DNA of 49,113 bases. Origin: Pseudomonadota bacterium (lineage in GTDB: Bacteria > Pseudomonadota > Alphaproteobacteria > Kiloniellales > J153). The DNA lies in the NCBI GenBank assembly GCA_022572105.1, contig JACZWN010000002.1, positions 1 to 49,113 of the forward strand, given 5' to 3'. Positions 19,188-30,605 of the stretch are shown here, piece after piece. Position numbers and translations under genes: made by a program. Position 1 is the first letter of the stretch, and the number at the start of each line of letters is the position of its first letter. The notes under the pieces were generated by a model. That model saw only the letters and a list, made by a program, of their open reading frames with translations, made no database searches and was not told where the DNA came from.

Positions 19188-19771
19188 GCCTGACCATGGA
19201 CATCTCGCTCATCCTCGACGCCATCGTCGCGGTTCTCTTGATAACGACCATCGGCTTCGCGGTGGTCTTGAACCGGAGGCTCGGCGTGCTGCGCAACGCG
19301 AAGTCCGAGATCGAGGCGCTGATTGCCCAATTCGCCGAATCCACCGACAAGGCGGGCAGCGGCATCGAATTGCTGAAGGACGAGACCAAGCGCTCGGGCG
19401 AGGCGCTGCAGGGTAAGCTGGATGCCGCCCGCGCCTTGGTTGACGACTTGGCCTTTCTCCTCGAAAGGGGGAGCAGCCTGGCCGACCGTCTGGACGGTGC
19501 TGTCGGCGCGGCGCGGGCAAAAATCGCGACCGGTGGCGCGTCCAAGCGCGCTCAAGGCGCGCGGCACCCGGGGCGGCAGAGTTCGGTTACACCGGTCGGC
19601 GCCGATGGCAAGCCGGGAGATAACGCAAACACATCGGCCGGTGCTGACAGCGGGCCGGGCGACACCGCAAGCAGCGGCGCTCTTCCCGATAGGCCCGGGC
19701 CGGACTCCGGCGCGCGGGACCTGTCCGCGCAGGAGTCGGATTTGCTGAAAGCCCTGCAAGGGATGCGGTGA
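19184..19771 (+). CDS. Bitopic membrane / coiled-coil / Pro-Gly-rich protein, PflI-like by architecture and synteny (uncertain)
   Basis: N-terminal TM ILDAIVAVLLITTIGFAVVL, a helical middle and a low-complexity C-terminus. The tracked start is GTG and overlaps the fliM stop. An alternative ATG lies at 19196. Confidence 0.55.
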   Translation: MSLTMDISLILDAIVAVLLITTIGFAVVLNRRLGVLRNAKSEIEALIAQFAESTDKAGSGIELLKDETKRSGEALQGKLDAARALVDDLAFLLERGSSLADRLDGAVGAARAKIATGGASKRAQGARHPGRQSSVTPVGADGKPGDNANTSAGADSGPGDTASSGALPDRPGPDSGARDLSAQESDLLKALQGMR

Positions 19772-19801
19772 TCGCTGCGCGGCGGGAGGAAATATTTTAC
19801 C

Positions 19802-20532
19802 ATGCGTTTACGTCTATTGCCGGTTCTCATCATCACCGCCTTGATCGCGCTGACCGTTCGGGTCGGCGATCTTTGGCAGGGATTGGGCTCCATGGCCCAG
19901 GCCCAGACGGCGTCGCAGGCCGAGACCAAGGCCGCCAAGACCACGGCCGCCAGACCACGGCCGCCAAGACCACGGCCACCAAGACCACAGCTACTGGGCA
20001 AGCCAAGCGCGGCGCGCGAACGCCCATACGGCGGCCAAAGGACGGAGAGACCGTTTATTCCAACGCCCCCACGCCCGCCGAGGTCGACTCCCTTCGGGTC
20101 CTGGATATGCCGGCGGACCCCTTCTCGATGACCGACGAGGAGATCGACCTTCTCCAGGCCTTGGCCGAACGGCGCCGGGAACTAGATCTGCGCGCCCGTC
20201 GGCTGGAGCAGCGCGAGATCTTGCTGCGGGCGGTCGAGCAGCGCATCGAGGAGAAAGCGGGCGGACTGAGGGTGCTGCTGAAGCAGCAGGAGGAGCAGAC
20301 CGACGATCAGTACAAGAGTCTGGTGAAGATTTACGAAAGCATGAAGCCCAAGGATGCCGCGCGGATCTTCGAGGAAATGGATCTGGCGGTCCTGATGCCG
20401 GTGGTCGAGCGGATGAAGGAACGCAAGACCGCGCCGATCCTGGCCAAGATGAATCCGGTCAAGGCGACGGCCATAATCACCCAGCTCGCCCAGCGCCGTA
20501 AAGCGCCGACCGAAAACGCCGAAAAGCAATAA
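19802..20532 (+). CDS. motE: MotE-like protein (MgtE_N-type C-terminal domain) interrupted by an apparent 1-nt frameshift near 19952
   Basis: Frame 2 from the ATG at 19802 gives the membrane anchor MRLRLLPVLIITALIALTVRVGDLW. Frame 1 carries the conserved part: FSMTDEEIDLLQALAERRRELDLRARRLEQRE...YESMKPKDAARIFEEMDLAVLMPVVERMKERKTAPILAKMNP. The frames meet in a 15-bp repeat array with one 14-nt unit. The tracked ORF 19768..20532 has an implausible N-terminus. Confidence 0.7.
19919..19992. repeat. Degenerate 15-bp tandem repeat array (5 units) with one 14-nt unit
   Basis: GCCGAGACCAAGGCC / GCCAAGACCACGGCC / GCC-AGACCACGGCC (14 nt, 19949..19962) / GCCAAGACCACGGCC / ACCAAGACCACAGCT. Confidence 0.95.
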
Positions 20533-21062: not shown

Positions 21063-21725
21063 ATGGCGCTGCCGACCCTCAACCAGGAAATTGAGCAGCA
21101 GCTCCACGACCTGTCCCGGACCGGATCCTGCATCGACCCCAAGGACATCCTCGAGGTCGTCGAGAGCATCATGGTCTCGATCTCGGGCGACCACGCGAGC
21201 CTGAACCACCGCCTGCATGCCGACATCGAGGCGCTGGCCAACTACATCAACGCCGCCAAGGCCGAGATCTCGGATATCAAGGCCGACAAGATCAACAGGG
21301 AATTCCTGCCCGAGGCCAGCGACCAGTTGATCGCCATCGTCGGAGCCACCGAGCAGGCCACCAACGACATCTTCGAAGCGGTCGAGTTAATCGAGGAATT
21401 GACGGAAAAGATGACCGCGGAAACGGCCGAGCGGGTGACCGAGGCGGTCACGCGCGTCTATGAGGCCTGCAGTTTTCAGGACATCACCGGTCAGCGCGTT
21501 TCCAAGGTGGTCACGGCGTTGCAAAACGTCGAGACCAAGGTCCATGCGCTGCTCCAGGCCTTTGGCGAGGAGAGCGGGGCCGAAGGGCGCGCGGCTGCGC
21601 CCGACACCGGTGTCGACGGCGCGACCCCGGCGTCCTCGGACGAACATCTGATGACCGGCCCGCAGATGCCGGGTGAGGGCAACAGCCAGGACGACATCGA
21701 CGCCCTTCTGGCCAACTTCGATTGA
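21063..21725 (+). CDS. cheZ: CheY-P phosphatase CheZ
   Basis: Catalytic helix motif ACSFQDITGQRVSKV (compare FQDLTGQ) and a C-terminal CheY-binding-like peptide SQDDIDALLANFD. Immediately downstream of cheY. Confidence 0.8.
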   Translation: MALPTLNQEIEQQLHDLSRTGSCIDPKDILEVVESIMVSISGDHASLNHRLHADIEALANYINAAKAEISDIKADKINREFLPEASDQLIAIVGATEQATNDIFEAVELIEELTEKMTAETAERVTEAVTRVYEACSFQDITGQRVSKVVTALQNVETKVHALLQAFGEESGAEGRAAAPDTGVDGATPASSDEHLMTGPQMPGEGNSQDDIDALLANFD

Positions 21726-21731
21726 TCCATC

Positions 21732-22427
21732 ATGACCGCTGCGGTACCCACCGGCCGCGACCGCGAGGCCAGCAGCAACATCGTGCCGCTGCTCAGCCTG
21801 ATGCTCATCCTGCTCGCCTTTTTCATCCTGTTGAACAGCCTGTCGGAGTTCGAGGCGGACAAAACCCAAGCCGTCATCGAAAGCGTCAACCGGGCCTTCA
21901 ACGGCAAGATCGAATCGGGGGACCGGACTCCGGCCTACAGCGCCACGCTCGGCGCGCTGCCCGAGGCCGAGGCCAAGATGCGGGAGGTCGGCAGCCTGTT
22001 CGAGGCGATCGTTCCCTCCGCGCGGGTCAAGCGGATCCGGCGCGCCAAGGCGGTTCGCGTGGAGCTGCCCGCGGCCTCCTTTTTCCGACCGGCGGGGGTA
22101 CGGCTGCGTCCGGGCGGTGAATTCCTGATCCAGCGCCTCGCGCGATTGCTCGCGCGTGATCCCCGCGGCGGCCCGAGTTACGACCTGGAGGTCCTGCTCG
22201 GCGTCGGCGCGCCGCCCGCCGGCGGCGCCGGGCCGGTGACGCCCGATCCCCGCTCCCTCGAAGTTCGCCGCGCCGCGCTGCTGGCCCAGCGCCTCGTCGA
22301 AGAGGGCCTGCGCCCTCCAATGCTTTCGATCGGCCTGTTGCCCAGGCAACCGGGGACGCTACGCTTCGTCGTGCGCGTGCGCCGGGATCCGGCCACCTCC
22401 GGGCGCCGCGCTACGGGGGCGGAGTAG
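21732..22427 (+). CDS. MotB-like / OmpA-like protein 1 (conserved TM Asp replaced)
   Basis: TM IVPLLSLMLILLAFFILLNS plus a degenerate OmpA_C-like part VRVELPAASFFRPAGVRLRPGGEFLIQRLARLL. Aligning on AFF puts Ser where MotB has the essential Asp. Confidence 0.65.
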   Translation: MTAAVPTGRDREASSNIVPLLSLMLILLAFFILLNSLSEFEADKTQAVIESVNRAFNGKIESGDRTPAYSATLGALPEAEAKMREVGSLFEAIVPSARVKRIRRAKAVRVELPAASFFRPAGVRLRPGGEFLIQRLARLLARDPRGGPSYDLEVLLGVGAPPAGGAGPVTPDPRSLEVRRAALLAQRLVEEGLRPPMLSIGLLPRQPGTLRFVVRVRRDPATSGRRATGAE

Positions 22428-22432
22428 GGGCC

Positions 22433-23206
22433 ATGGCCGGCCCGCGCCCCGCCAGCCACAGCGACGGTCCCAAAACCGGGGCCGCGTCGTCTTTCCTTCC
22501 CCGGCTCGCGAAACCAGGCTGGGTCGGCTCGGCGAACCAGGCCTGGATGATCACATTCACCGACCTCGTCGCGCTGATGCTGGCGTTCTTCGTGCTGCTC
22601 TTCGCCATGTCGCAGGTCGAGCAGAAAAAATGGCAGGGACTCGTCGATTCGCTGAACGCCGATCTCAACGCCCTCAAGTCGGTCGAGCGCGTCAAGCCGG
22701 CGCTCGATTATCACCCGGAGGACGAAGCGGTCCTCCCCGGCGCCGACCTGGACTATCTGGCGTCCGTGTTGCGCCAGCAAATCGCGGCGCACGCCTTGTT
22801 GGCGCGCGGCACGATCCGACGACTGCCGGACCGCCTGGTCGTCTCCCTGCCGGCCGATCTGCTATTCCGGGCTAATGCCACCACCCTCGCACCCGGGGCC
22901 AGGGACGCGGGCTTCGCGCTCGGCGGGGTGCTGCGCAACCTGAACAACCGGATCGAGGTGGCGGCCCGCGTACGACACAGCGACCGGGCGCACGGGCGGC
23001 GCTCCGACTGGCAACTGGCGCTGGCCCGCGCCGCGCTCTTCACCGGCATGTTGACGCGCGCCGGTTACCGAGGTCCGATCGTAGCGCGCGGCATTGTGGA
23101 GAGCCGCGCCGGGGGGCAGGCGCCCGCGTCGAGCGCGGAGCCTGGCGGGCTCCAGGGCGATCGCCTCGATATCGTGATTCACGAATTTGCCCGGGAGTCG
23201 CAATGA
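22433..23206 (+). CDS. MotB-like / OmpA-like protein 2 (TM Asp conserved)
   Basis: WMITFTDLVALMLAFFVLLFAMS (compare E. coli ADFMTAMMAFFLVMW), then LVVSLPADLLFRANATTLAPGARDAGFALGGVL...SDWQLALARAALFTGMLTRAGY. Confidence 0.7.
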   Translation: MAGPRPASHSDGPKTGAASSFLPRLAKPGWVGSANQAWMITFTDLVALMLAFFVLLFAMSQVEQKKWQGLVDSLNADLNALKSVERVKPALDYHPEDEAVLPGADLDYLASVLRQQIAAHALLARGTIRRLPDRLVVSLPADLLFRANATTLAPGARDAGFALGGVLRNLNNRIEVAARVRHSDRAHGRRSDWQLALARAALFTGMLTRAGYRGPIVARGIVESRAGGQAPASSAEPGGLQGDRLDIVIHEFARESQ

Positions 23207-26200
23207 TGCCCGGGTCGCGCCTGCTTTACCTCGTCCTTGCCGTGCTGGTCGCCGCCGGCGCCCCGGCCGTCGGCGTCTGGGCCGCCGAGCGGGTCGCGGT
23301 GCGGGTCGGCGAGCATCCGGGGTTCAGCCGGATCGTGTTCGACTGGAGCCGGCCCGTGGGCGCGCGCGTCGAGCGGCAAGGGGGGCAAGGGGGATACGTC
23401 GTTCTGCGCTTCGACCGCGTGGGCGAGCTCGACCTCGCGCGCTTCCGGGCCGATCCGCCGCCCGAGGTTTCGCGCATCGCGGCCAGGCCCGAGGGCGACG
23501 GGCTGGTCGTGACCCTGACCGTCGTCCCCGGCGCCAAGACCCGGCTGTTCGAGAGCGAAGGCAAGACCGTCCTCGACGTTCTCAAGCCGGGCACGCTCGA
23601 TGATGCACGGGCCACCACGCCCGAAGACTGGCGCCGCCGCCGAGCGGCCGGGCGGTCCGAGGCGAAGTCGACGCCGGCCCCGGTGCCCGAGCGCCGGCCG
23701 AGCCCGCCCAAGGCCGGGGACGCCGCCGCGGCGCAGGCCGCCAAGGTCGGCGATCCGAAGGCGCGCGCCGGGACGCCGCCCGCGCGCGGCGCCCCAATCT
23801 CGCTTCTACCCCCGGCCACGTCCGAGTCCGAGCCGAAATCCGCCGACCGGTCCGCCGCCCCGGAGAAGGCCCCCGGGAAGGTCTCGGAGAAGGTCTCGGA
23901 AAAGGCCGGGAAAAATGCACCCGGATCGCAGGACGCAAAGGCCAAGACCGTTGCCCCGGCCGCGCCGGCCGAGACCAAAACCAAGGCCGAGACCAAAACC
24001 AAGGTCGGGCCCAAGGCCAAACCCGGTCGGGCGGCCTCGGCCTCGTCGGACAAGCAGCCCCGGGGCACGGTCTCTGCAACGGGCCTGGCGGCCGCCGGGG
24101 TTCCCTCCATGCCAAGCGGCGAAGCGTCCGGCGCGAGTCCGGTGCTGGTCTCCAGCGGCTCCGCGCCGGTCCTGATCGAAACCTCCCCGATGCCCGGCAG
24201 GTCCTTGTCGCGCGGCATCCCGCGGGCGCTGCGCTTCGATTGGCCGGAGGTCACCGCGGCCGCTGCCTTCCGGCGCGGCGGCAAGCTCTGGCTCGTCTTC
24301 GACCGTCCGCCGACCGGCGATCTGGCGGGCGACATCAGTCGGATGGCGCCGGAGCTCGAACCGGTCGAGCAGTTCGAAGTGGCGGGTGCGACGGTCATCC
24401 GCTTTGCCGCACCGGCCATGCTGACCGCCAATCTGCGCCGCGAGAAGGCGGCCTGGATCGTCGATTTGCAGCCTGGGGTTCCCGACGGCGGGACGGAGAT
24501 CGAAGTGCTGGTCGAGGGAAGCGCGGCGCGCGCCCGGGTTGTGTACCGGGTCGAAACGCCCGGACGCATGGTCTCGTTCATCGACCCGGACCTGGGCGAT
24601 CGCTTGATCGTCGTGCCGGTGCCCACCGCCCAACTGGGGCTCCGTGTGACCCGGGAGTTCCCTCAGTTCCGAGTGCTCGCGAGCCATCAGGGCCTGGTTT
24701 TCCAGCCGCTTTCCGAGAGCCTCCAGGTCGAGGTGACGGCGAAGGCCGTGGTGCTGCGCGACCGCGAAGGGTTGATCGTTTCGCGCGGTTCGAGTCTGGC
24801 GCTTTTGAAGTCCAACGTGGCGGCGCCGCGCCGGGGCCCGAGGCTGTTCGATCTCGATGCCTGGCGGCGCGGCGGCGCGGAGCGGTTCCGGGTCAACAAG
24901 CATATGCTGCAAGGGGCGCTCGCCCGGGCGGAGCCCGCGCACGCCGACGCGGCCCGCTTCGAGCTCGCGCGGTTCTACTTCGCCCACGGCCTGGCTTCCG
25001 AGGCGCTTGGCATGTTGCGTCTGGCTGGGCAGACGGATCCGCGCATGGCGTTGGATCCGCGGCTGCGCCTCGTCGAGGGCGCGAGTGAATTTTTGACCGA
25101 CGATCTCGCGGGCGCGGCCGAGGTGCTCTTCGATCCGTCGCTCGCGGGCGAGTGGGAGGCCGATCTATGGCGCGCCGCGCTGGCCGCCGCCCGCCTCGAT
25201 TGGGGTCTCGCCGCGACCGGCTTCGCGCAGACCGAGGCGTTGATCGCGGCCTATCCGCATGCCGTGCGGGTCCGCTTGCGGCTGCTCGCCGCCGAGGCGG
25301 GGCTCGCGGTGGGCGACCATGAGGGCGCCGAGCGCTACCTCGAGGCGGTGCGCCGGGACGATCCGAGCCACACCGAGGAGGCGCAGGTCGCGTTCCTGGT
25401 GGCGCGCCGCCTGCATCTCGATGGCGATACCGAGACCGCGGCCGCGCTGTGGCGAAGAGTGGCGGCGGGCAAGCACGCGTCGTCGCGGATTCGGGCCCGT
25501 CTCGCCTTGCTCGATCTGGCGCTGGAAGACGGCTCGACCACCACCGAACAAGCGATCGAAGAGTTGGAGCGCCTGCGCTTCGCCTGGCGCGGCGACCGCT
25601 TCGAGTTCGCGCTCTTGCAGCGCCTGGGCGATCTCTACGTCCTGCGCGGGGACTACCGAAAGGGGCTGCGCCTGTTGCGCCGCGCGGCCTCGCATACCCA
25701 GAATTCCGAAGTTTCCCGGGCGGCGGCAAGCCGCATGCGCGTGATTTTCACCAATCTCTTCAGCGGCCAGGCGGACGCCAAGCTGCCGCCGTTGAAGGCG
25801 CTCGCGTTGTTCGAGGAGTTCAAGGAGTTGACGCCGCCGGGGCCGAAAGGGGACGAGGTGATCCTCCGCCTCGTGGACCGGTTGGTCGCGGTCGATCTGC
25901 TCGACCGCGCGGCCGGCATCCTCGAATCGCAGGTCGAATACCGGCTTCGGGGAACCGCCAAGGCCCGGGTCGCGGCGCGCCTGGCGTTGGTCCGCCTGTT
26001 GAACCAGGAGCCCGCCAAGGCCGTGGCGGTCCTGAAAGCCAGCGCGCTGCCGGATCTCCCCGACGGCCTGGTCGGTGAGCGCCGCATCCTGCGGACCCGC
26101 GCGCTGCTGCAACTGGACCGGGCGGACGAGGCTCTGGTTTCGCTCGGCACAGACGACAGCGTCGAGGCGCTACGCCTGCGCGCCCAGATCCTTTCGCACC

Positions 26201-26544
26201 AGGAGAACTGGCCGGCCGCGGTGCTCGCGCTCGAGCGCCTGGTGCCGGCGACCCCGCCGTCCGAGCGTCCGTTGCGCGAAGCCGAAAGCGACGCCGTGCT
26301 CGACCTGGCGGTGGCGCTGACCATGGCCGGCGAGCGTGACAAGATCCTGGCGCTGGGGCGGACCTACGAGGACGGCATGTCGCGTGGGCCGAACAAGCAT
26401 GCCTTCGCCCTGCTGGTCGGCGATCTGGAGCCGAACCGGGTCAAGTCGGCCGCCGAGGAATTGGCTCAGGTCGATCAGGTCGAGGCGTTCCTGGCCAGCT
26501 ACCGCAAGCGCACCGGAGCGAGCGGCCAAGCCACTACTCAATAA
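23203..26544 (+). CDS. 1113-aa secreted protein: signal peptide, beta-rich AMIN-like N-module, Pro/Ala/Lys low-complexity linker, large helical TPR-like C-terminal region; function unknown
   Basis: The start overlaps the MotB-like 2 stop (ATGATG/TGA). Signal peptide LLYLVLAVLVAAGAPAVGVWA. FSRIVFDWSRPV...VVLRFDRV...LVVTLTVVPG. Linker with KVSEKVSEK and ETKTKAETKTK repeats. C-terminal ~600 aa are helical with TPR-like A/L/R periodicity. Confidence 0.7.
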   Translation: MMPGSRLLYLVLAVLVAAGAPAVGVWAAERVAVRVGEHPGFSRIVFDWSRPVGARVERQGGQGGYVVLRFDRVGELDLARFRADPPPEVSRIAARPEGDGLVVTLTVVPGAKTRLFESEGKTVLDVLKPGTLDDARATTPEDWRRRRAAGRSEAKSTPAPVPERRPSPPKAGDAAAAQAAKVGDPKARAGTPPARGAPISLLPPATSESEPKSADRSAAPEKAPGKVSEKVSEKAGKNAPGSQDAKAKTVAPAAPAETKTKAETKTKVGPKAKPGRAASASSDKQPRGTVSATGLAAAGVPSMPSGEASGASPVLVSSGSAPVLIETSPMPGRSLSRGIPRALRFDWPEVTAAAAFRRGGKLWLVFDRPPTGDLAGDISRMAPELEPVEQFEVAGATVIRFAAPAMLTANLRREKAAWIVDLQPGVPDGGTEIEVLVEGSAARARVVYRVETPGRMVSFIDPDLGDRLIVVPVPTAQLGLRVTREFPQFRVLASHQGLVFQPLSESLQVEVTAKAVVLRDREGLIVSRGSSLALLKSNVAAPRRGPRLFDLDAWRRGGAERFRVNKHMLQGALARAEPAHADAARFELARFYFAHGLASEALGMLRLAGQTDPRMALDPRLRLVEGASEFLTDDLAGAAEVLFDPSLAGEWEADLWRAALAAARLDWGLAATGFAQTEALIAAYPHAVRVRLRLLAAEAGLAVGDHEGAERYLEAVRRDDPSHTEEAQVAFLVARRLHLDGDTETAAALWRRVAAGKHASSRIRARLALLDLALEDGSTTTEQAIEELERLRFAWRGDRFEFALLQRLGDLYVLRGDYRKGLRLLRRAASHTQNSEVSRAAASRMRVIFTNLFSGQADAKLPPLKALALFEEFKELTPPGPKGDEVILRLVDRLVAVDLLDRAAGILESQVEYRLRGTAKARVAARLALVRLLNQEPAKAVAVLKASALPDLPDGLVGERRILRTRALLQLDRADEALVSLGTDDSVEALRLRAQILSHQENWPAAVLALERLVPATPPSERPLREAESDAVLDLAVALTMAGERDKILALGRTYEDGMSRGPNKHAFALLVGDLEPNRVKSAAEELAQVDQVEAFLASYRKRTGASGQATTQ

Positions 26545-26572: not shown

Positions 26573-26655
26573 ACTCCAGTGCGCTTTCTTGCTTTGGCGT
26601 TGCGACCGGCGGGTCGGCGCCGGGCTGGTGCGATTCCACGTTAGTGGAACTTGCT

Positions 26656-27405
26656 CTAGATCCCGTAGCTTTGCACCAGGGAGCCGGCGACCAGGTACCA
26701 GCCGTCGACCAGGACGAAGAAGATCAGCTTGAAGGGCAGGGAGATCATGATGGGGGGCAGCATCAGCATGCCCATCGACATGAGCACCGAGGCCACCACC
26801 ATGTCGATGATGATGAATGGCAGGAACAGCAGGAAGCCGATCTCGAAGGCCCGGCGCAACTCGGAGATCATGAACGCCGGAATGAGCGAGCGCATCGGCG
26901 TCTCTTCGGGCGTGGCGATCGGTCCGGTCTCGGCCATGTCCAGGAACAGCTTGAGGTCCTGCTCGCGGACGTGGTCGAGCATGAACTCGCGGACTGGTTC
27001 GGTCGCCTTTTCCAGGGCCTCCATCTCGGTGATGTCCTCGGCGACCATGGGCTGGATCGCCTGGTCATAGATTCGTTCCAGCGTCGGCATCATGATGAAG
27101 GCGGTCAGGAACAGGGCCAGGCTGATGAGCACCGAGTTGGGCGGCGTCTGCTGGATGCCGAGCGCACTGCGCAGAAACGACAGCACCACCACGATGCGGG
27201 TGAAAGAGGTGAGCATGACCAGGATCGACGGCGCCAGGCTCAGGATCGTAAGTAGCACGACCAGTTGGATGAGCCGGTTGGCGGTCGAGCCGCTGGTCTC
27301 GTCGCCCAGGTCGAACTGAAGCATCTGCGCGAGCGCTGGCTCGGGCACCAAGGCCACGGCCAGGAGGGCGAGAACGCCCAAGACGAGCGCGCTTGGCCGC
27401 ATCAT
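26656..27405 (-). CDS. fliP: Flagellar export apparatus protein FliP
   Basis: Start at the ATG at 27405 (MMRPSALVLGVLALLAVALVP). SLAPSILVMLTSFTRIVVVLSFLRSALGIQQTPPN ... FLLFLPFIIIDMVVASVLMSMGMLMLPP. The tracked 373-aa ORF is N-terminally over-extended across fliO. Confidence 0.92.
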   Translation of the reverse strand: MMRPSALVLGVLALLAVALVPEPALAQMLQFDLGDETSGSTANRLIQLVVLLTILSLAPSILVMLTSFTRIVVVLSFLRSALGIQQTPPNSVLISLALFLTAFIMMPTLERIYDQAIQPMVAEDITEMEALEKATEPVREFMLDHVREQDLKLFLDMAETGPIATPEETPMRSLIPAFMISELRRAFEIGFLLFLPFIIIDMVVASVLMSMGMLMLPPIMISLPFKLIFFVLVDGWYLVAGSLVQSYGI

Positions 27406-27773
27406 GAGGTCTGCCTCTTCGCCTCGGGCATCTCCACCTCGGGCATCTTCCCAGCGGGCGTTTCCGCTTGTGGCACGGCGGCGCGCGCCGGAGAGGCGGC
27501 GTCCCGCGGCGCCTGGATGGCGCTTTCCAGGAGCAGGTCCTGGTTCGGTCCGAGCAGCACCAGGTGCTCGCAGCCGTCGCGACGCAGCAGCACGAGCTTG
27601 CGCCGGGAATCGAGCACCCTGACCTCGACCACGGACAGCCGGGGTGACTTGCCCCTGTTCGGGGTCAGTTGGCCGCCGAACCCGAAGCGCCGCGCCGCCC
27701 AGGCGAGGCCGCCGATGAGCGCGAGCACCAGGACCAAGGCGAGCATGAAGCGGATGTAGACGTCGAAATCCAT
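27402..27773 (-). CDS. fliO: Flagellar export protein FliO
   Basis: 123 aa. Single TM FMLALVLVLALIGGLAWAARRF, then LSVVEVRVLDSRRKLVLLRRDGCEHLVLLG. ATGA overlap with fliP. Confidence 0.8.
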   Translation of the reverse strand: MDFDVYIRFMLALVLVLALIGGLAWAARRFGFGGQLTPNRGKSPRLSVVEVRVLDSRRKLVLLRRDGCEHLVLLGPNQDLLLESAIQAPRDAASPARAAVPQAETPAGKMPEVEMPEAKRQTS

Positions 27774-29479: not shown

Positions 29480-29766
29480 ACCAAAGGTCCTTGATAATGA
29501 CCCATAGAGACGGCTTCCCAAGGTTTTCGGCCAGGAGCGCGTGGCGTAGCGATGCGGGACATCGCAAGCCATGCGCCCCGTCCACAAGAATTGGGCCGTC
29601 CGAAAGCCTTGGGAAACCACCGTTCCGGTCGGGCAGGCGAACCGCCGGAGGGCGTCGGAAAGCCTTGACGATGTCCCGCATCGCCCGCGGCTTCCCTCCT
29701 ACCCGCCCGTTGGCCCGACGGATCGCCGGCCCGATCTCTATGGGTCATTATCAAGGACCTTTGGTA
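29480..29766. mobile_element. MITE-like non-autonomous element (~287 bp) inserted between flgB and flgC
   Basis: Perfect 33-bp terminal inverted repeats: ATACCAAAGGTCCTTGATAATGACCCATAGAGA (29479..29511) and its reverse complement (29735..29767). Flanking TA/TAA duplication. Further internal inverted repeats (GCGATGCGGGACATCGC / CGATGTCCCGCATCGC). No credible ORF. Confidence 0.8.
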
Positions 29767-29781
29767 TAAGGAGGAGGCTGG

Positions 29782-30192
29782 ATGGCGGATCTGAGCAAAT
29801 CCATGAACATCTCGGCGGCCGGCATGAAGGCGCAGGGCACGCGCTTGCGCATCATTTCCGAGAACATCGCCAACGCCGGCTCGACGGCGCTCACGCCGAA
29901 CGGCGAGCCCTACCGGCGCAAGCTGGTGACCTTCGGCACCACGCTCAACCGCGAGCTCGGCACGGAGCTGATCGACGTGCAGAAGGTTTCGCGCGACCCG
30001 TCCGATTTCGGCCTGCGCTACCAGCCCGGCCATCCGGCCGCCGATGCGAGCGGATACGTGAAGACCGCGAACGTCAACACGCTGATCGAGATGACCGACA
30101 TGCGCGAAGCCCAACGCAGCTACGAGGCCAACCTCCGCGTGATGCAGGCGGCGCGCGCCATGCTGCAGCGGACCATCGATCTGCTGCGCTAA
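29782..30192 (+). CDS. flgC: Flagellar proximal rod protein FlgC
   Basis: MNISAAGMKAQGTRLRIISENIANAGST ... VNTLIEMTDMREAQRSYEANLRVMQAARAML. AAGGAGGAGG RBS. Confidence 0.93.
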   Translation: MADLSKSMNISAAGMKAQGTRLRIISENIANAGSTALTPNGEPYRRKLVTFGTTLNRELGTELIDVQKVSRDPSDFGLRYQPGHPAADASGYVKTANVNTLIEMTDMREAQRSYEANLRVMQAARAMLQRTIDLLR

Positions 30193-30293
30193 TACCAAGA
30201 AGCGCCGAGTTTTCCAGCGGCCGCCAGGAAGGCGGCCGCCAATTCGCCAGGAAGGCCGAGGGCAGGGGCGTGTTTCGCCCCGGGAGATTTGCC

Positions 30294-30605
30294 ATGGCCA
30301 TCAATTTCACCGACGCCGTCAAGGCGTACGAGAAGATCGCGCGGCACGACGCGATTCCGGGCCCCGGCGGCCCGCAAATCAAGGGCGGCGCGGATTTCTC
30401 CGATGTCCTGCGCGAAGCTACCGAAGGCGCCATGGGGGCCCTGCGCGAGGGCGAGCGCCAGACCCTGAAGGCAGCGGCCGGAACCGCCGACTTGAACGAC
30501 GTGGTGATGGCGGTGGGCAAAGCCGAAATGACGCTGCAAACCGTGGTCGCGCTGCGCGACCGCGTGATCCAGGCCTACCAGGAAATTATCCGGATGCCGA
30601 TCTAG
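30294..30605 (+). CDS. fliE: Flagellar hook-basal body protein FliE
   Basis: 103 aa. FSDVLREATEGAMGALREGERQTLKAAAGTADLNDVVMAVGKAEMTLQTVVALRDRVIQAYQEIIRMPI. Confidence 0.88.
   Translation: MAINFTDAVKAYEKIARHDAIPGPGGPQIKGGADFSDVLREATEGAMGALREGERQTLKAAAGTADLNDVVMAVGKAEMTLQTVVALRDRVIQAYQEIIRMPI

What the first reader, a model, noticed from the sequence alone, without database searches (positions are those of the whole stretch)
23203..26544. Giant secreted AMIN-like / low-complexity / TPR-like protein translationally coupled to the MotB-like pair
The protein has a signal peptide, a beta-rich N-module resembling peptidoglycan-associated AMIN domains (identified by eye), and a Pro/Ala/Lys linker of about 200 aa. 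The linker has short tandem DNA repeats (12 bp x2 at 23878..23901 and 18 bp x2 at 23971..24006). About 600 aa of helical repeats follow. The start codon overlaps the stop of MotB-like 2. Large periplasmic TPR proteins scaffold stators in other lineages (for example the PflA/PflB-type discs of Campylobacterota), but I know of no equivalent described for this type of cluster. It is a candidate novel periplasmic motor scaffold.
Basis: inference. Interest (0 to 1): 0.65.

Follow-up and report, generated by a model that had tools for sequence, protein, structure and literature searches.

The report
FssB/MotK-type flagellar stator scaffold protein
This large exported protein is real and almost certainly part of the flagellar motor, but it is the local copy of a family already described (FssB in Caulobacter, MotK in Cereibacter, resembling PflA in Campylobacter), so it is a good annotation, not a new kind of part.

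Summary
ORF 23203..26544 (+) is a real 1113-aa gene whose ATG overlaps the stop of the upstream MotB-like gene (ATGA).

The gene lies in a conserved operon: fliL-fliM-pflI-motE-(cheZ-like)-motB'-motB''-THIS-orfD1-flgB. The family is large (3444 representative clusters at E<=1e-30). It was found in 189 of 301 sampled alphaproteobacterial genomes, including 177 of the 186 that have FliM.

It is a full-length sequence homologue (BLASTP 2e-86) of the Caulobacteraceae protein at the position of FssB/CC_2058, whose deletion paralyses the flagellum. It is a profile homologue (hhalign 99%, E 3.5e-18) of the Roseobacteraceae protein at the MotK position. Its best structural match in the PDB is the probable PflA chain of the C. 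jejuni motor scaffold.

The scaffold reading is supported; the claim that no equivalent is described is out of date. Verdict: new member of a known kind, low interest. The more unusual feature is the neighbouring MotB-like pair, one copy without the channel Asp, which is extra to a canonical MotAB elsewhere in the genome.

The parts
23203..23283 (+). Signal peptide (residues 1-27), with predicted cleavage after V-W-A
   Evidence: Sequence inspection; helix 6-17 followed by low pLDDT in the model. No signal-peptide predictor was run.
23284..23592 (+). N-terminal AMIN-like beta-sandwich (residues 28-130), containing the motif VRVGEHPGFSRIVFDW
   Evidence: pLDDT above 90. Foldseek matches PilQ 3jc8_Qa (E 3.6e-5), AmiC 4bin (rmsd 3.1 A) and the PilQ B2 domain 4aqz. 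Family profile versus PilQ 4av2, E 0.005. PF24837 AMIN-like is precomputed on many homologues. 36% identical to the N-domain of the Phenylobacterium FssB-position protein.
23593..24216 (+). Disordered Ala/Pro/Ser/Lys-rich linker (residues 131-338), holding one short helix (140-154) and the 12-bp and 18-bp tandem repeats
   Evidence: pLDDT below 50 over most of 153-335. Composition. Tandem repeats. This is the least conserved part of the protein (17% identity, 37% gaps).
24217..24837 (+). Two conserved beta modules (residues 339-426 and 427-545) with the motifs LRFDW...AAAFRRG..LWLVFD and DPDLGDRLIVVP.
   Evidence: pLDDT mostly above 90. Near-invariant residues W347, F366, D461, G465, P472 and G497. 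Aligned to the Phenylobacterium protein within the 2e-86 BLASTP match. Foldseek aligns 507 columns of the N-half model with the PilQ chain of the type IVa pilus model 3jc8 (E 3.6e-5).
24838..26544 (+). TPR-like alpha-solenoid (residues 546-1113) plus the stop codon, with the family signature LERLRFAWRGDRFEF
   Evidence: About 30 helices with pLDDT around 90 or higher. Weak Pfam hits to TPR_19 and ANAPC3. The top Foldseek hit of the whole model is 9hmf_K, from the C. jejuni motor scaffold (E 4.6e-11). hhalign against the Roseobacteraceae MotK-position family gives 99% probability, E 3.5e-18, over 441 columns.
22433..23206 (+). MotB-like 2 (257 aa). It keeps the channel Asp (TFTDLVALM) and has only a marginal OmpA-like C-terminal domain. 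Its stop overlaps the start of the scaffold gene.
   Evidence: MotB_plug E 1.7e-16; OmpA only E 0.08, below the cut-off. Asp at this position in 68 of 68 related loci. Present upstream in 65 of 67 loci.
21732..22427 (+). MotB-like 1 (231 aa), with Ser in place of the channel Asp (PLLSLMLIL)
   Evidence: MotB_plug E 2.9e-6. Ser or Gly at the Asp position in 36 of 36 loci where the alignment covers it. Present in 62 of 67 loci.
19768..20532 (+). MotE/FlgY/FlbB-type protein (254 aa, MgtE_N domain), the presumed E-ring partner
   Evidence: PF03448 MgtE_N E 6.8e-6; NCBIfam collar_FlbB E 2.7e-5, below the cut-off. Present upstream in 67 of 67 loci. Its role is taken from PMC13023049 and PMC10954123.
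17528..19771 (+). fliL, fliM and a DUF6468 (PflI-like) gene, which open the operon
   Evidence: Pfam and NCBIfam hits. The order is conserved in the related loci.

Best explanation
The gene encodes the FssB/MotK-family periplasmic accessory protein of the alphaproteobacterial flagellar motor, a counterpart of Campylobacter PflA.

Proposed mechanism, with the status of each step:
- It is exported by Sec (shown only by sequence features).
- Its long TPR solenoid, together with the two conserved beta modules, docks on the MotE ring around the MS-ring and on the periplasmic part of MotB-type stator subunits (inferred from MotK and PflA).
- The N-terminal AMIN-like domain sits on a flexible tether of about 200 residues. 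It either binds peptidoglycan or clasps a neighbouring TPR arm, as the PflA sandwich and linker clasp PflB (inferred).
- The result is that stator units are recruited, held or switched on. Loss should give assembled but paralysed flagella, as in Caulobacter fssB and Cereibacter motK mutants (inferred).

Shown here: the domain anatomy, the operon context, the near-universal co-occurrence with flagellar genes in Alphaproteobacteria, and homology to the FssB-position and MotK-position proteins.
For: - Anatomy: AF2 model with mean pLDDT 78.9, and above 90 in all folded parts.
- Fold: the best PDB match of the whole model is chain K of 9HMF, the C. jejuni periplasmic scaffold (E 4.6e-11). Its 773 residues fit mature PflA. 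The N-terminal half matches PilQ and AmiC AMIN domains.
- Synteny: in 67 related loci with at least 3 kb upstream, motE precedes the gene in 67, fliM in 66 and MotB-like 2 in 65. flgB, fliE, fliR and flhB follow.
- Distribution: 189 of 301 sampled alphaproteobacterial genomes have a match, and 177 of the 186 genomes with FliM.
- Homology to FssB: BLASTP 2e-86 (32% over 778 aa), plus 1e-10 for the AMIN domain, against a 976-aa Phenylobacterium (Caulobacteraceae) protein. That protein lies in a fliL-fliM-DUF6468-261 aa-X locus, which is the CC_2062..CC_2058 arrangement.
- Homology to MotK: hhalign 99%, E 3.5e-18, against the Leisingera/Roseobacteraceae protein in a fliL-pflI-motE-motA-X locus, the MotK arrangement.
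- Literature: fssB = CC_2058, and its deletion gives a paralysed flagellum (PMC7885107). MotK binds MotE and MotB2 and is essential for rotation (PMC10954123). PflA forms spokes that scaffold stators (PMC12222027; PMC11870540).
Against: - No experiment exists for this protein or its order.
- I could not fetch the FssB and MotK sequences themselves. The link runs through positional orthologues in Phenylobacterium and Leisingera.
- There is no detectable sequence similarity to PflA. The family profile did not list 9HMF at E<=1 in the PDB sequence search, and Foldseek TM-scores are low (0.15-0.20) because the long flexible models do not superpose globally.
- Pfam AMIN-like is below its cut-off on this protein, and peptidoglycan binding is untested.
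- No PflB-like second TPR or transmembrane partner was seen among the neighbouring genes.
- Whether the family acts as a structural spoke or as a transient stator activator or chaperone is unsettled even for MotK and MotC (PMC13023049).
Confidence: 0.8

Rival explanations
1. The protein is a periplasmic chaperone or activator, not a fixed structural part. It would bind MotB-type proteins or MotE transiently to open the plug or stabilise them, and would not be a stoichiometric ring or spoke in the assembled motor.
For: MotE was first described as a chaperone for the TPR protein MotC in S. meliloti, and MotE stability depends on MotK (PMC13023049; section headings of PMC10954123). In Caulobacter, MotB plug mutations suppress the related fssA defect (PMC7885107). 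That fits a role in activating stators.
Against: MotK localises to the flagellated pole. PflA, the best structural match, is a stoichiometric spoke in situ. A 568-aa solenoid, three beta-sandwiches and a wall-binding-type domain is an elaborate build for a transient chaperone.
Confidence: 0.12
2. In lineages that carry the operon-encoded MotB-like pair, the protein is the wall anchor supplied in trans. The two MotB-like proteins have weak or no OmpA-type peptidoglycan-binding signatures, and one lacks the channel Asp. They would form the membrane part, and the AMIN domain of this protein would fix them to peptidoglycan. Together they would make a fixed stator-holding module distinct from the canonical MotAB.
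For: The genes overlap (ATGA). The pair precedes the gene in 62-65 of 67 loci. OmpA on MotB-like 2 scores only E 0.08, and MotB-like 1 shows no OmpA match. Asp is present in 68 of 68 copies of one paralogue and is Ser or Gly in 36 of 36 of the other. Genomes with the pair still have a canonical MotA and MotB(OmpA) elsewhere and only one MotA_N gene.
Against: Many lineages have the scaffold gene directly after motE with no MotB-like pair: Hyphobacterium, Phenylobacterium, G154 and G014. The scaffold therefore does not need the pair. MotB-like 2 still shows remnants of the OmpA motif (HSD...WQLALARA, by eye). Nothing tested here shows that the AMIN domain binds peptidoglycan.
Confidence: 0.15
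3. The protein belongs to an unrelated envelope system (type IV pilus PilQ/PilF-like, Tol-Pal/CpoB-like, or a polar landmark such as FimV/HubP) and merely sits next to flagellar genes.
For: The AMIN fold is shared with PilQ and AmiC. There are weak TPR profile hits to CpoB/YbgF and SprE.
Against: Its position inside the fliL...flhB operon is invariant across the 79 related loci. It co-occurs with FliM in 177 of 189 genomes with a match. There is no secretin, amidase or LysM domain. It is homologous to proteins whose deletion paralyses flagella.
Confidence: 0.02

Closest known systems
FssB (CC_2058 / CCNA_02137) of Caulobacter crescentus (Hershey et al., mBio 2021, PMC7885107)
   Same: Both are Sec-exported TPR proteins encoded directly downstream of fliL-fliM-pflI-motE. 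The Caulobacteraceae (Phenylobacterium) protein at that position aligns with the window protein over the AMIN domain (36% identity, E 1e-10) and over the beta modules plus the TPR region (32% over 778 aa, E 2e-86). Deleting fssB gives assembled but paralysed flagella.
   Different: The Caulobacteraceae protein is shorter (976 aa in Phenylobacterium) because its linker is much shorter. There the gene follows motE directly; here a cheZ-like gene and two MotB-like genes lie in between, and the last one overlaps the scaffold gene. I did not have the CC_2058 sequence itself, so the orthology is inferred from position.
MotK of Cereibacter sphaeroides Fla2 (Velez-Gonzalez et al. 2024, PMC10954123)
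   Same: Both have a signal peptide, an N-terminal AMIN-like beta domain, a disordered Pro-rich region and a TPR region, and both genes lie in the fliL-pflI-motE operon. The Roseobacteraceae protein at the MotK position is a profile homologue (hhalign 99%, E 3.5e-18). It shares the GEHxGFxRLV motif of the AMIN domain (HMM E 7.4e-7).
   Different: MotK has 652 aa, with one beta domain reported. The window protein has 1113 aa, with two further conserved beta modules and a longer solenoid. motK follows motA2, whereas this gene follows a MotB-like pair. tblastn does not detect the similarity (no plasmid-borne hit); only profiles do.
PflA of Campylobacter jejuni / Helicobacter pylori (proximal-disk spoke; PDB 9HMF; PMC12222027, PMC11870540, PMC12054838)
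   Same: Both have a beta-sandwich (AMIN-like), a flexible linker and a long TPR array, are periplasmic, and are associated with the FlgY/MotE ring and with stators. The probable PflA chain 9hmf_K is the top Foldseek hit of the full model among 350,542 PDB chains (E 4.6e-11).
   Different: No sequence similarity is detectable. PflA works with a membrane-anchored TPR partner, PflB, and no such gene was seen near this one. PflA has one beta-sandwich and the window protein has three. In PflA the sandwich and linker bind PflB, not necessarily the cell wall.
MotC of Sinorhizobium meliloti (Eggenhofer et al. 2004, as reviewed in PMC13023049)
   Same: MotC is a periplasmic TPR-type protein that binds MotE and is needed for rotation. 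Short TPR-only relatives of the window family exist downstream of motE in Iodidimonas (565 aa) and Futiania (592 aa).
   Different: MotC lacks the AMIN domain and the beta modules and is encoded next to motB, not motE. I did not test its relation to this family.
AMIN domains of PilQ and AmiC (PF11741 / PF24837)
   Same: They share the fold of the N-terminal module (3jc8, 4bin, 4aqz). Tandem AMIN domains separated by low-complexity linkers occur in PilQ, as here.
   Different: There is no secretin or amidase domain here. The Pfam score on this protein is below the cut-off (16.6 against 27 bits).

Membership tests
FssB/MotK family (alphaproteobacterial AMIN-TPR flagellar motor proteins) | Sec signal peptide and periplasmic location | tested here: met
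   The N-terminus has R6, a 19-residue hydrophobic core and V-W-A|A. This rests on sequence inspection only. No other transmembrane helix appears in the model.
FssB/MotK family (alphaproteobacterial AMIN-TPR flagellar motor proteins) | N-terminal AMIN-like beta-sandwich | tested here: met
   pLDDT above 90 for residues 28-130. Foldseek matches PilQ (E 3.6e-5) and AmiC (rmsd 3.1 A).
FssB/MotK family (alphaproteobacterial AMIN-TPR flagellar motor proteins) | Disordered, Pro-rich linker followed by a TPR region | tested here: met
   pLDDT below 50 over most of 153-335; the linker 131-338 is 13% Pro and 20% Ala. Helical solenoid at 546-1113.
FssB/MotK family (alphaproteobacterial AMIN-TPR flagellar motor proteins) | Gene in the fliL-(fliM)-pflI-motE operon | tested here: met
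   Seen in the window. motE lies upstream in 67 of 67 related loci.
FssB/MotK family (alphaproteobacterial AMIN-TPR flagellar motor proteins) | Sequence homology to the FssB-position protein of Caulobacteraceae | tested here: met
   BLASTP 2e-86 and 1e-10 against Phenylobacterium P0523, with the locus checked. CC_2058 itself was not available.
FssB/MotK family (alphaproteobacterial AMIN-TPR flagellar motor proteins) | Homology to the MotK-position protein of Rhodobacterales | tested here: met
   hhalign of A1 against A3 gives probability 99%, E 3.5e-18, over 441 columns. The locus order fliL-pflI-motE-motA-X in Leisingera was checked. The C. sphaeroides MotK sequence itself was not available.
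FssB/MotK family (alphaproteobacterial AMIN-TPR flagellar motor proteins) | Binds MotE and MotB; deletion gives paralysed flagella; polar localisation | not testable with these tools
   These are experimental properties reported for MotK (PMC10954123) and FssB (PMC7885107).
PflA (Campylobacterota proximal-disk spoke) | Architecture of beta-sandwich, linker and long TPR array | tested here: met
   9hmf_K is the top Foldseek hit (E 4.6e-11, 803 aligned columns). That chain K is PflA is inferred from its 773 residues.
PflA (Campylobacterota proximal-disk spoke) | Detectable sequence homology to PflA | tested here: not met
   The family profile searched against all PDB chain sequences lists no 9HMF chain at E<=1.
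PflA (Campylobacterota proximal-disk spoke) | Partner PflB (a transmembrane-anchored TPR rim protein) encoded in the genome | tested here: inconclusive
   None of the 20 neighbouring ORFs scanned has TPR hits. The rest of the genome was not searched.
AMIN domain (Pfam PF11741 / PF24837) | Score above the Pfam gathering threshold | tested here: not met
   PF24837 scores 16.6 bits against a cut-off of 27. Many homologues do carry precomputed PF24837 hits.
AMIN domain (Pfam PF11741 / PF24837) | Binds peptidoglycan | not testable with these tools
   This needs a sacculus pull-down with the purified domain.

The most novel reading that the evidence does not exclude
In the many Kiloniellales/Rhodospirillales-type lineages where this gene is translationally coupled to an operon-encoded MotB-like pair, the three proteins may form a fixed periplasmic stator-holding module of their own. 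One member of the pair keeps the channel Asp and the other never has it. Both are extra to a canonical MotAB, and each genome has only one MotA. The MotB/MotB' pair, possibly a heterodimer, would sit in the membrane. It would be clamped by the TPR arm and tied to the wall through the tethered AMIN domain. That would be an arrangement not described for FssB, MotK or PflA.
Probability: 0.15. Interest if true: 0.55.

Novelty: new member of a known kind. Interest (0 to 1): 0.2.

Why it matters
The main value is annotation. Thousands of database entries labelled 'hypothetical' or 'tetratricopeptide repeat protein' in alphaproteobacterial flagellar operons can be named as FssB/MotK-family motor proteins. 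In the class-wide sample the family was found in about 95% of the genomes that have FliM.

The result also supports the recent proposal that an E-ring (MotE/FlgY) with TPR spokes is a common feature of flagellar motors outside the beta- and gammaproteobacteria. It joins FssB-type and MotK-type proteins, which were reported as not similar by BLAST, through sequence profiles. Neither point is surprising to a specialist.

The part that could still teach something is the conserved Asp-less MotB paralogue and its Asp-bearing partner next to this gene.

Tried and rejected
- tblastn of the protein against PLSDB plasmids found nothing.
- Searching plasmids with MotE found Roseobacteraceae plasmid flagellar clusters (Marinovum pMaD5, Salipiger, Sulfitobacter). 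These have fliL-fliM-pflI-motE but no large AMIN/TPR gene next to them, so they gave no MotK sequence.
- The supplement of the MotK paper holds the sequences only as images.
- I could not fetch the MotK and CC_2058 sequences by accession. I used positional orthologues found through whole-genome searches and named by exact look-up.
- The first class-wide genome search failed on the server and was repeated.
- The 150 best hits of the representative search were all full-length close relatives, so they could not bridge to MotK.
- A spurious high-GC ORF was considered and rejected because of the homologue counts.
- An unrelated envelope system was considered and rejected on synteny and co-occurrence.
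- Reading MotB-like 2 as the motor's only MotB was rejected for this genome. A canonical motA-motB pair with a clear OmpA domain lies on another contig.

Full report
**Observation.** ORF 23203..26544 on the + strand encodes 1113 residues. Its ATG overlaps the TGA of the preceding ORF 22433..23206 in the sequence ATGA. That upstream ORF carries a MotB_plug domain (E 1.7e-16). They lie in the low-complexity linker and encode KVSEKVSEK and AETKTKAETKTK. The region is 70-72% G+C, so long spurious ORFs are expected on both strands. This frame is nonetheless validated by 168 word-indexed homologues and by 8262 representative proteins at E<=0.001, of which 3444 are at E<=1e-30.

**Anatomy.** An AlphaFold2 model built on a 40-sequence alignment has mean pLDDT 78.9, and above 90 in every folded part. 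It shows the following regions:
- a signal-peptide helix followed by V-W-A|A (residues 1-27);
- a beta-sandwich (28-130);
- a short helix and then a disordered stretch (131-338), made up of 20% Ala, 13% Pro, 12% Ser and 9% Lys;
- two further beta modules (339-426 and 427-545);
- a solenoid of about 30 helices (546-1113).

A second model of residues 28-545 matches the type IVa pilus model 3jc8, chain Qa (PilQ), at E 3.6e-5 over 507 columns. It also matches the AmiC AMIN domain 4bin (rmsd 3.1 A) and the PilQ B2 domain 4aqz. The family profile hits PilQ 4av2 at E 0.005. Pfam AMIN-like is below its cut-off on this protein but is precomputed on many homologues. The 'AMIN-like by eye' call is therefore supported at the level of fold. 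Some relatives carry a second AMIN-like domain at the N-terminus.

**Context.** The window holds a flagellar cluster:
- flgH, flgA and flgG on the minus strand;
- then on the plus strand fliL (17528), fliM (18081), a DUF6468/PflI-like gene (19184), an MgtE_N/FlbB-like MotE gene (19768), a CheZ-like gene (21063), MotB-like 1 (21732), MotB-like 2 (22433) and this gene;
- then two unknown ORFs (26644 and 27265), followed by flgB, fliE, fliR and flhB.

A scan of species-representative genomes found 483 relatives, and 79 loci were kept. tblastn with the window's proteins shows the same gene order in essentially all of them. Among the 67 loci with at least 3 kb upstream, motE is present in 67, fliM in 66, pflI in 65, MotB-like 2 in 65, MotB-like 1 in 62 and the CheZ-like gene in 55. 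The organisms named are Kiloniellales (Kiloniella, Pelagibius, Denitrobaculum), Algihabitans, Rhodovibrionaceae, Thalassospiraceae, Stellaceae, Tistlia, Ferruginivarius and Virgifigura.

**Distribution.** In an even sample of 301 alphaproteobacterial genomes, the family profile matched 189 and Pfam FliM matched 186. The two sets share 177 genomes. The Fisher test gives 4e-55, but it is not corrected for phylogeny.

**What is known.**
- FssB. fssB = CC_2058 of Caulobacter encodes a Sec-exported TPR protein, and its deletion gives a paralysed flagellum like a motB mutant (PMC7885107).
- MotK. MotK of Cereibacter sphaeroides Fla2 has 652 aa, with a signal peptide, an AMIN-like N-domain, disordered Pro-rich regions and a TPR region. 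Its operon is fliL2-pflI-motE-motA2-motK. It is essential for rotation and binds MotE and MotB2. The authors proposed CC_2058 as a distant structural homologue (PMC10954123).
- PflA. Cryo-EM work on C. jejuni shows PflA as an AMIN-like sandwich, a linker and 17 TPRs. It forms spokes between the FlgY E-ring and a PflB rim that hold the stators (PMC12222027; PMC11870540). That work and a 2026 review group MotC, MotK, CC_2058 and FlcB with PflA, and MotE with FlgY and FlbB (PMC13023049).

**Tests of the link.**
1. Fold. The full model's best hit among 350,542 PDB chains is 9hmf_K, from the C. jejuni periplasmic scaffold (E 4.6e-11, 803 columns). Its 773 residues fit mature PflA; that assignment is my inference. 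TM-scores are low, as expected for long flexible multidomain models.
2. MotK side. A genome in the sample turned out to be Leisingera (Roseobacteraceae). It has fliL-pflI-motE-motA followed by an 816-aa protein that starts with a signal peptide and the motif TRSGEHKGFTRLV. An alignment of 19 such proteins compared with the window family gives hhalign probability 99%, E 3.5e-18, over 441 columns of the solenoid. The family HMM also finds its AMIN domain (E 7.4e-7).
3. FssB side. A Hyphobacterium genome has fliL-fliM-motE followed directly by a family member. A search from that protein reaches proteins of about 975 aa, including one from Phenylobacterium, a member of Caulobacteraceae. Its locus is flgH-flgA-flgG-flgF | fliL-fliM-DUF6468-261 aa-976 aa | fliP, which is the Caulobacter CC_2062..CC_2058 layout. 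BLASTP of the window protein against it gives 2e-86 (32% over 778 aa, covering both beta modules and the solenoid) and 1e-10 for the AMIN domain.

The window protein is therefore a full-length homologue of the FssB-position protein and a profile-level homologue of the MotK-position protein. I could not obtain the CC_2058 and MotK sequences themselves, so these two links rest on positional orthologues.

**Mechanism.** The most likely mechanism is the following, with each step marked as shown or inferred.
- Sec export is shown only by sequence features.
- The solenoid and the beta modules bind the MotE ring and the periplasmic part of MotB-type proteins. This is inferred from MotK and PflA.
- The AMIN-like domain on its tether of about 200 residues either binds peptidoglycan, as in AmiC and PilQ, or clasps a neighbouring TPR arm, as in the PflA-PflB contact. 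This is inferred.
- The outcome is recruitment, fixation or activation of stators, so loss should paralyse an otherwise complete flagellum. This is inferred from fssB and motK mutants.

A chaperone or activator role without a fixed place in the motor cannot be excluded. An unrelated envelope role is very unlikely given the synteny and co-occurrence.

**The neighbours.** MotB-like 2 keeps the channel Asp (TFTDLVALM), and this holds in 68 of 68 related loci. MotB-like 1 has Ser or Gly at that position in 36 of 36 loci where the alignment covers it. OmpA on MotB-like 2 is only E 0.08, and MotB-like 1 shows no OmpA match. The window's genome also has a canonical motA-motB pair on another contig, with MotA_N at 1.4e-29 and MotB with OmpA at 4.9e-12. 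In 12 genomes examined:
- six of the eight with MotB-like genes in the operon show three MotB_plug matches, namely the two operon copies and a separate canonical one;
- in the other two (G264 and G010) only one operon copy and the canonical copy were detected;
- Hyphobacterium and G154 lack the pair and show a single MotB_plug match;
- Roseiterribacter (G016) and G014 also lack an operon pair but have two and four MotB_plug matches elsewhere in the genome;
- most of the twelve have a single MotA_N match.

The pair is thus an addition to the canonical stator genes, not the motor's only MotB. Many lineages have the scaffold gene without the pair, so the scaffold does not depend on it. Earlier notes of this scan on other genomes reached similar readings of the scaffold and of the Asp-less paralogue. 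They gave me the name FssB as a lead, which I then checked in the paper and by sequence.

**Verdict.** The scaffold interpretation is supported by homology, while the claim of no described equivalent is out of date. This is a new member of a known kind, and the family is very large and near-universal in flagellated Alphaproteobacteria. Interest is low (0.2). The residual novelty lies in the long form of the protein with three beta-sandwiches and in its coupling to the MotB/MotB' pair.

Noticed in passing
window 21732-23206 (+): There are two MotB-like genes with no adjacent motA. One keeps the channel Asp (68 of 68 related loci) and the other has Ser or Gly there (36 of 36). They are extra to a canonical motA-motB(OmpA) pair on another contig of the same genome. 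Six of the eight examined genomes that have MotB-like genes in the operon show three MotB_plug matches, and most of the twelve examined have one MotA_N match. The function of the Asp-less paralogue appears to be undescribed.
   Followed up: partly
window 26644-27255 and 27265-27759 (+): Two ORFs of 203 and 164 aa lie between the scaffold gene and flgB and have no Pfam or NCBIfam match, even at E<=1. The first is found downstream of the scaffold gene in most related loci, including Hyphobacterium and Roseiterribacter. It may be an unnamed flagellar gene.
   Followed up: partly
window 21063-21725 (+): A CheZ-like gene (PF04344, E 6.4e-16) sits inside the flagellar operon between motE and the MotB-like pair. 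It is present in 55 of 67 related loci.
   Followed up: no
L151 8766-10463 (Iodidimonas sp.) and L152 7997-9775 (Futiania mangrovi): Short forms of the family (565 and 592 aa) consist of a signal peptide and the TPR solenoid only, with no AMIN domain or beta modules. They still lie downstream of fliL-fliM-(pflI)-motE. They are reminiscent of MotC-type proteins.
   Followed up: partly
L157 (Marinovum algicola pMaD5), L158 (Salipiger abyssi pPABY5), L159 (Sulfitobacter sp. SK025 plasmid): Plasmid-borne flagellar clusters of Roseobacteraceae have fliL-fliM-pflI-motE but no FssB/MotK-like gene next to motE.
   Followed up: no
window 29571-30605 (+): This 344-aa ORF has a FliE domain only in its last 74 residues. 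It is probably an over-extended frame in high-GC DNA that overlaps the true flgC and a short fliE.
   Followed up: no
L171 4838-5873 (genome G122): fliM matches in two overlapping pieces in different frames. This could be a frameshift or an assembly error in that genome.
   Followed up: no
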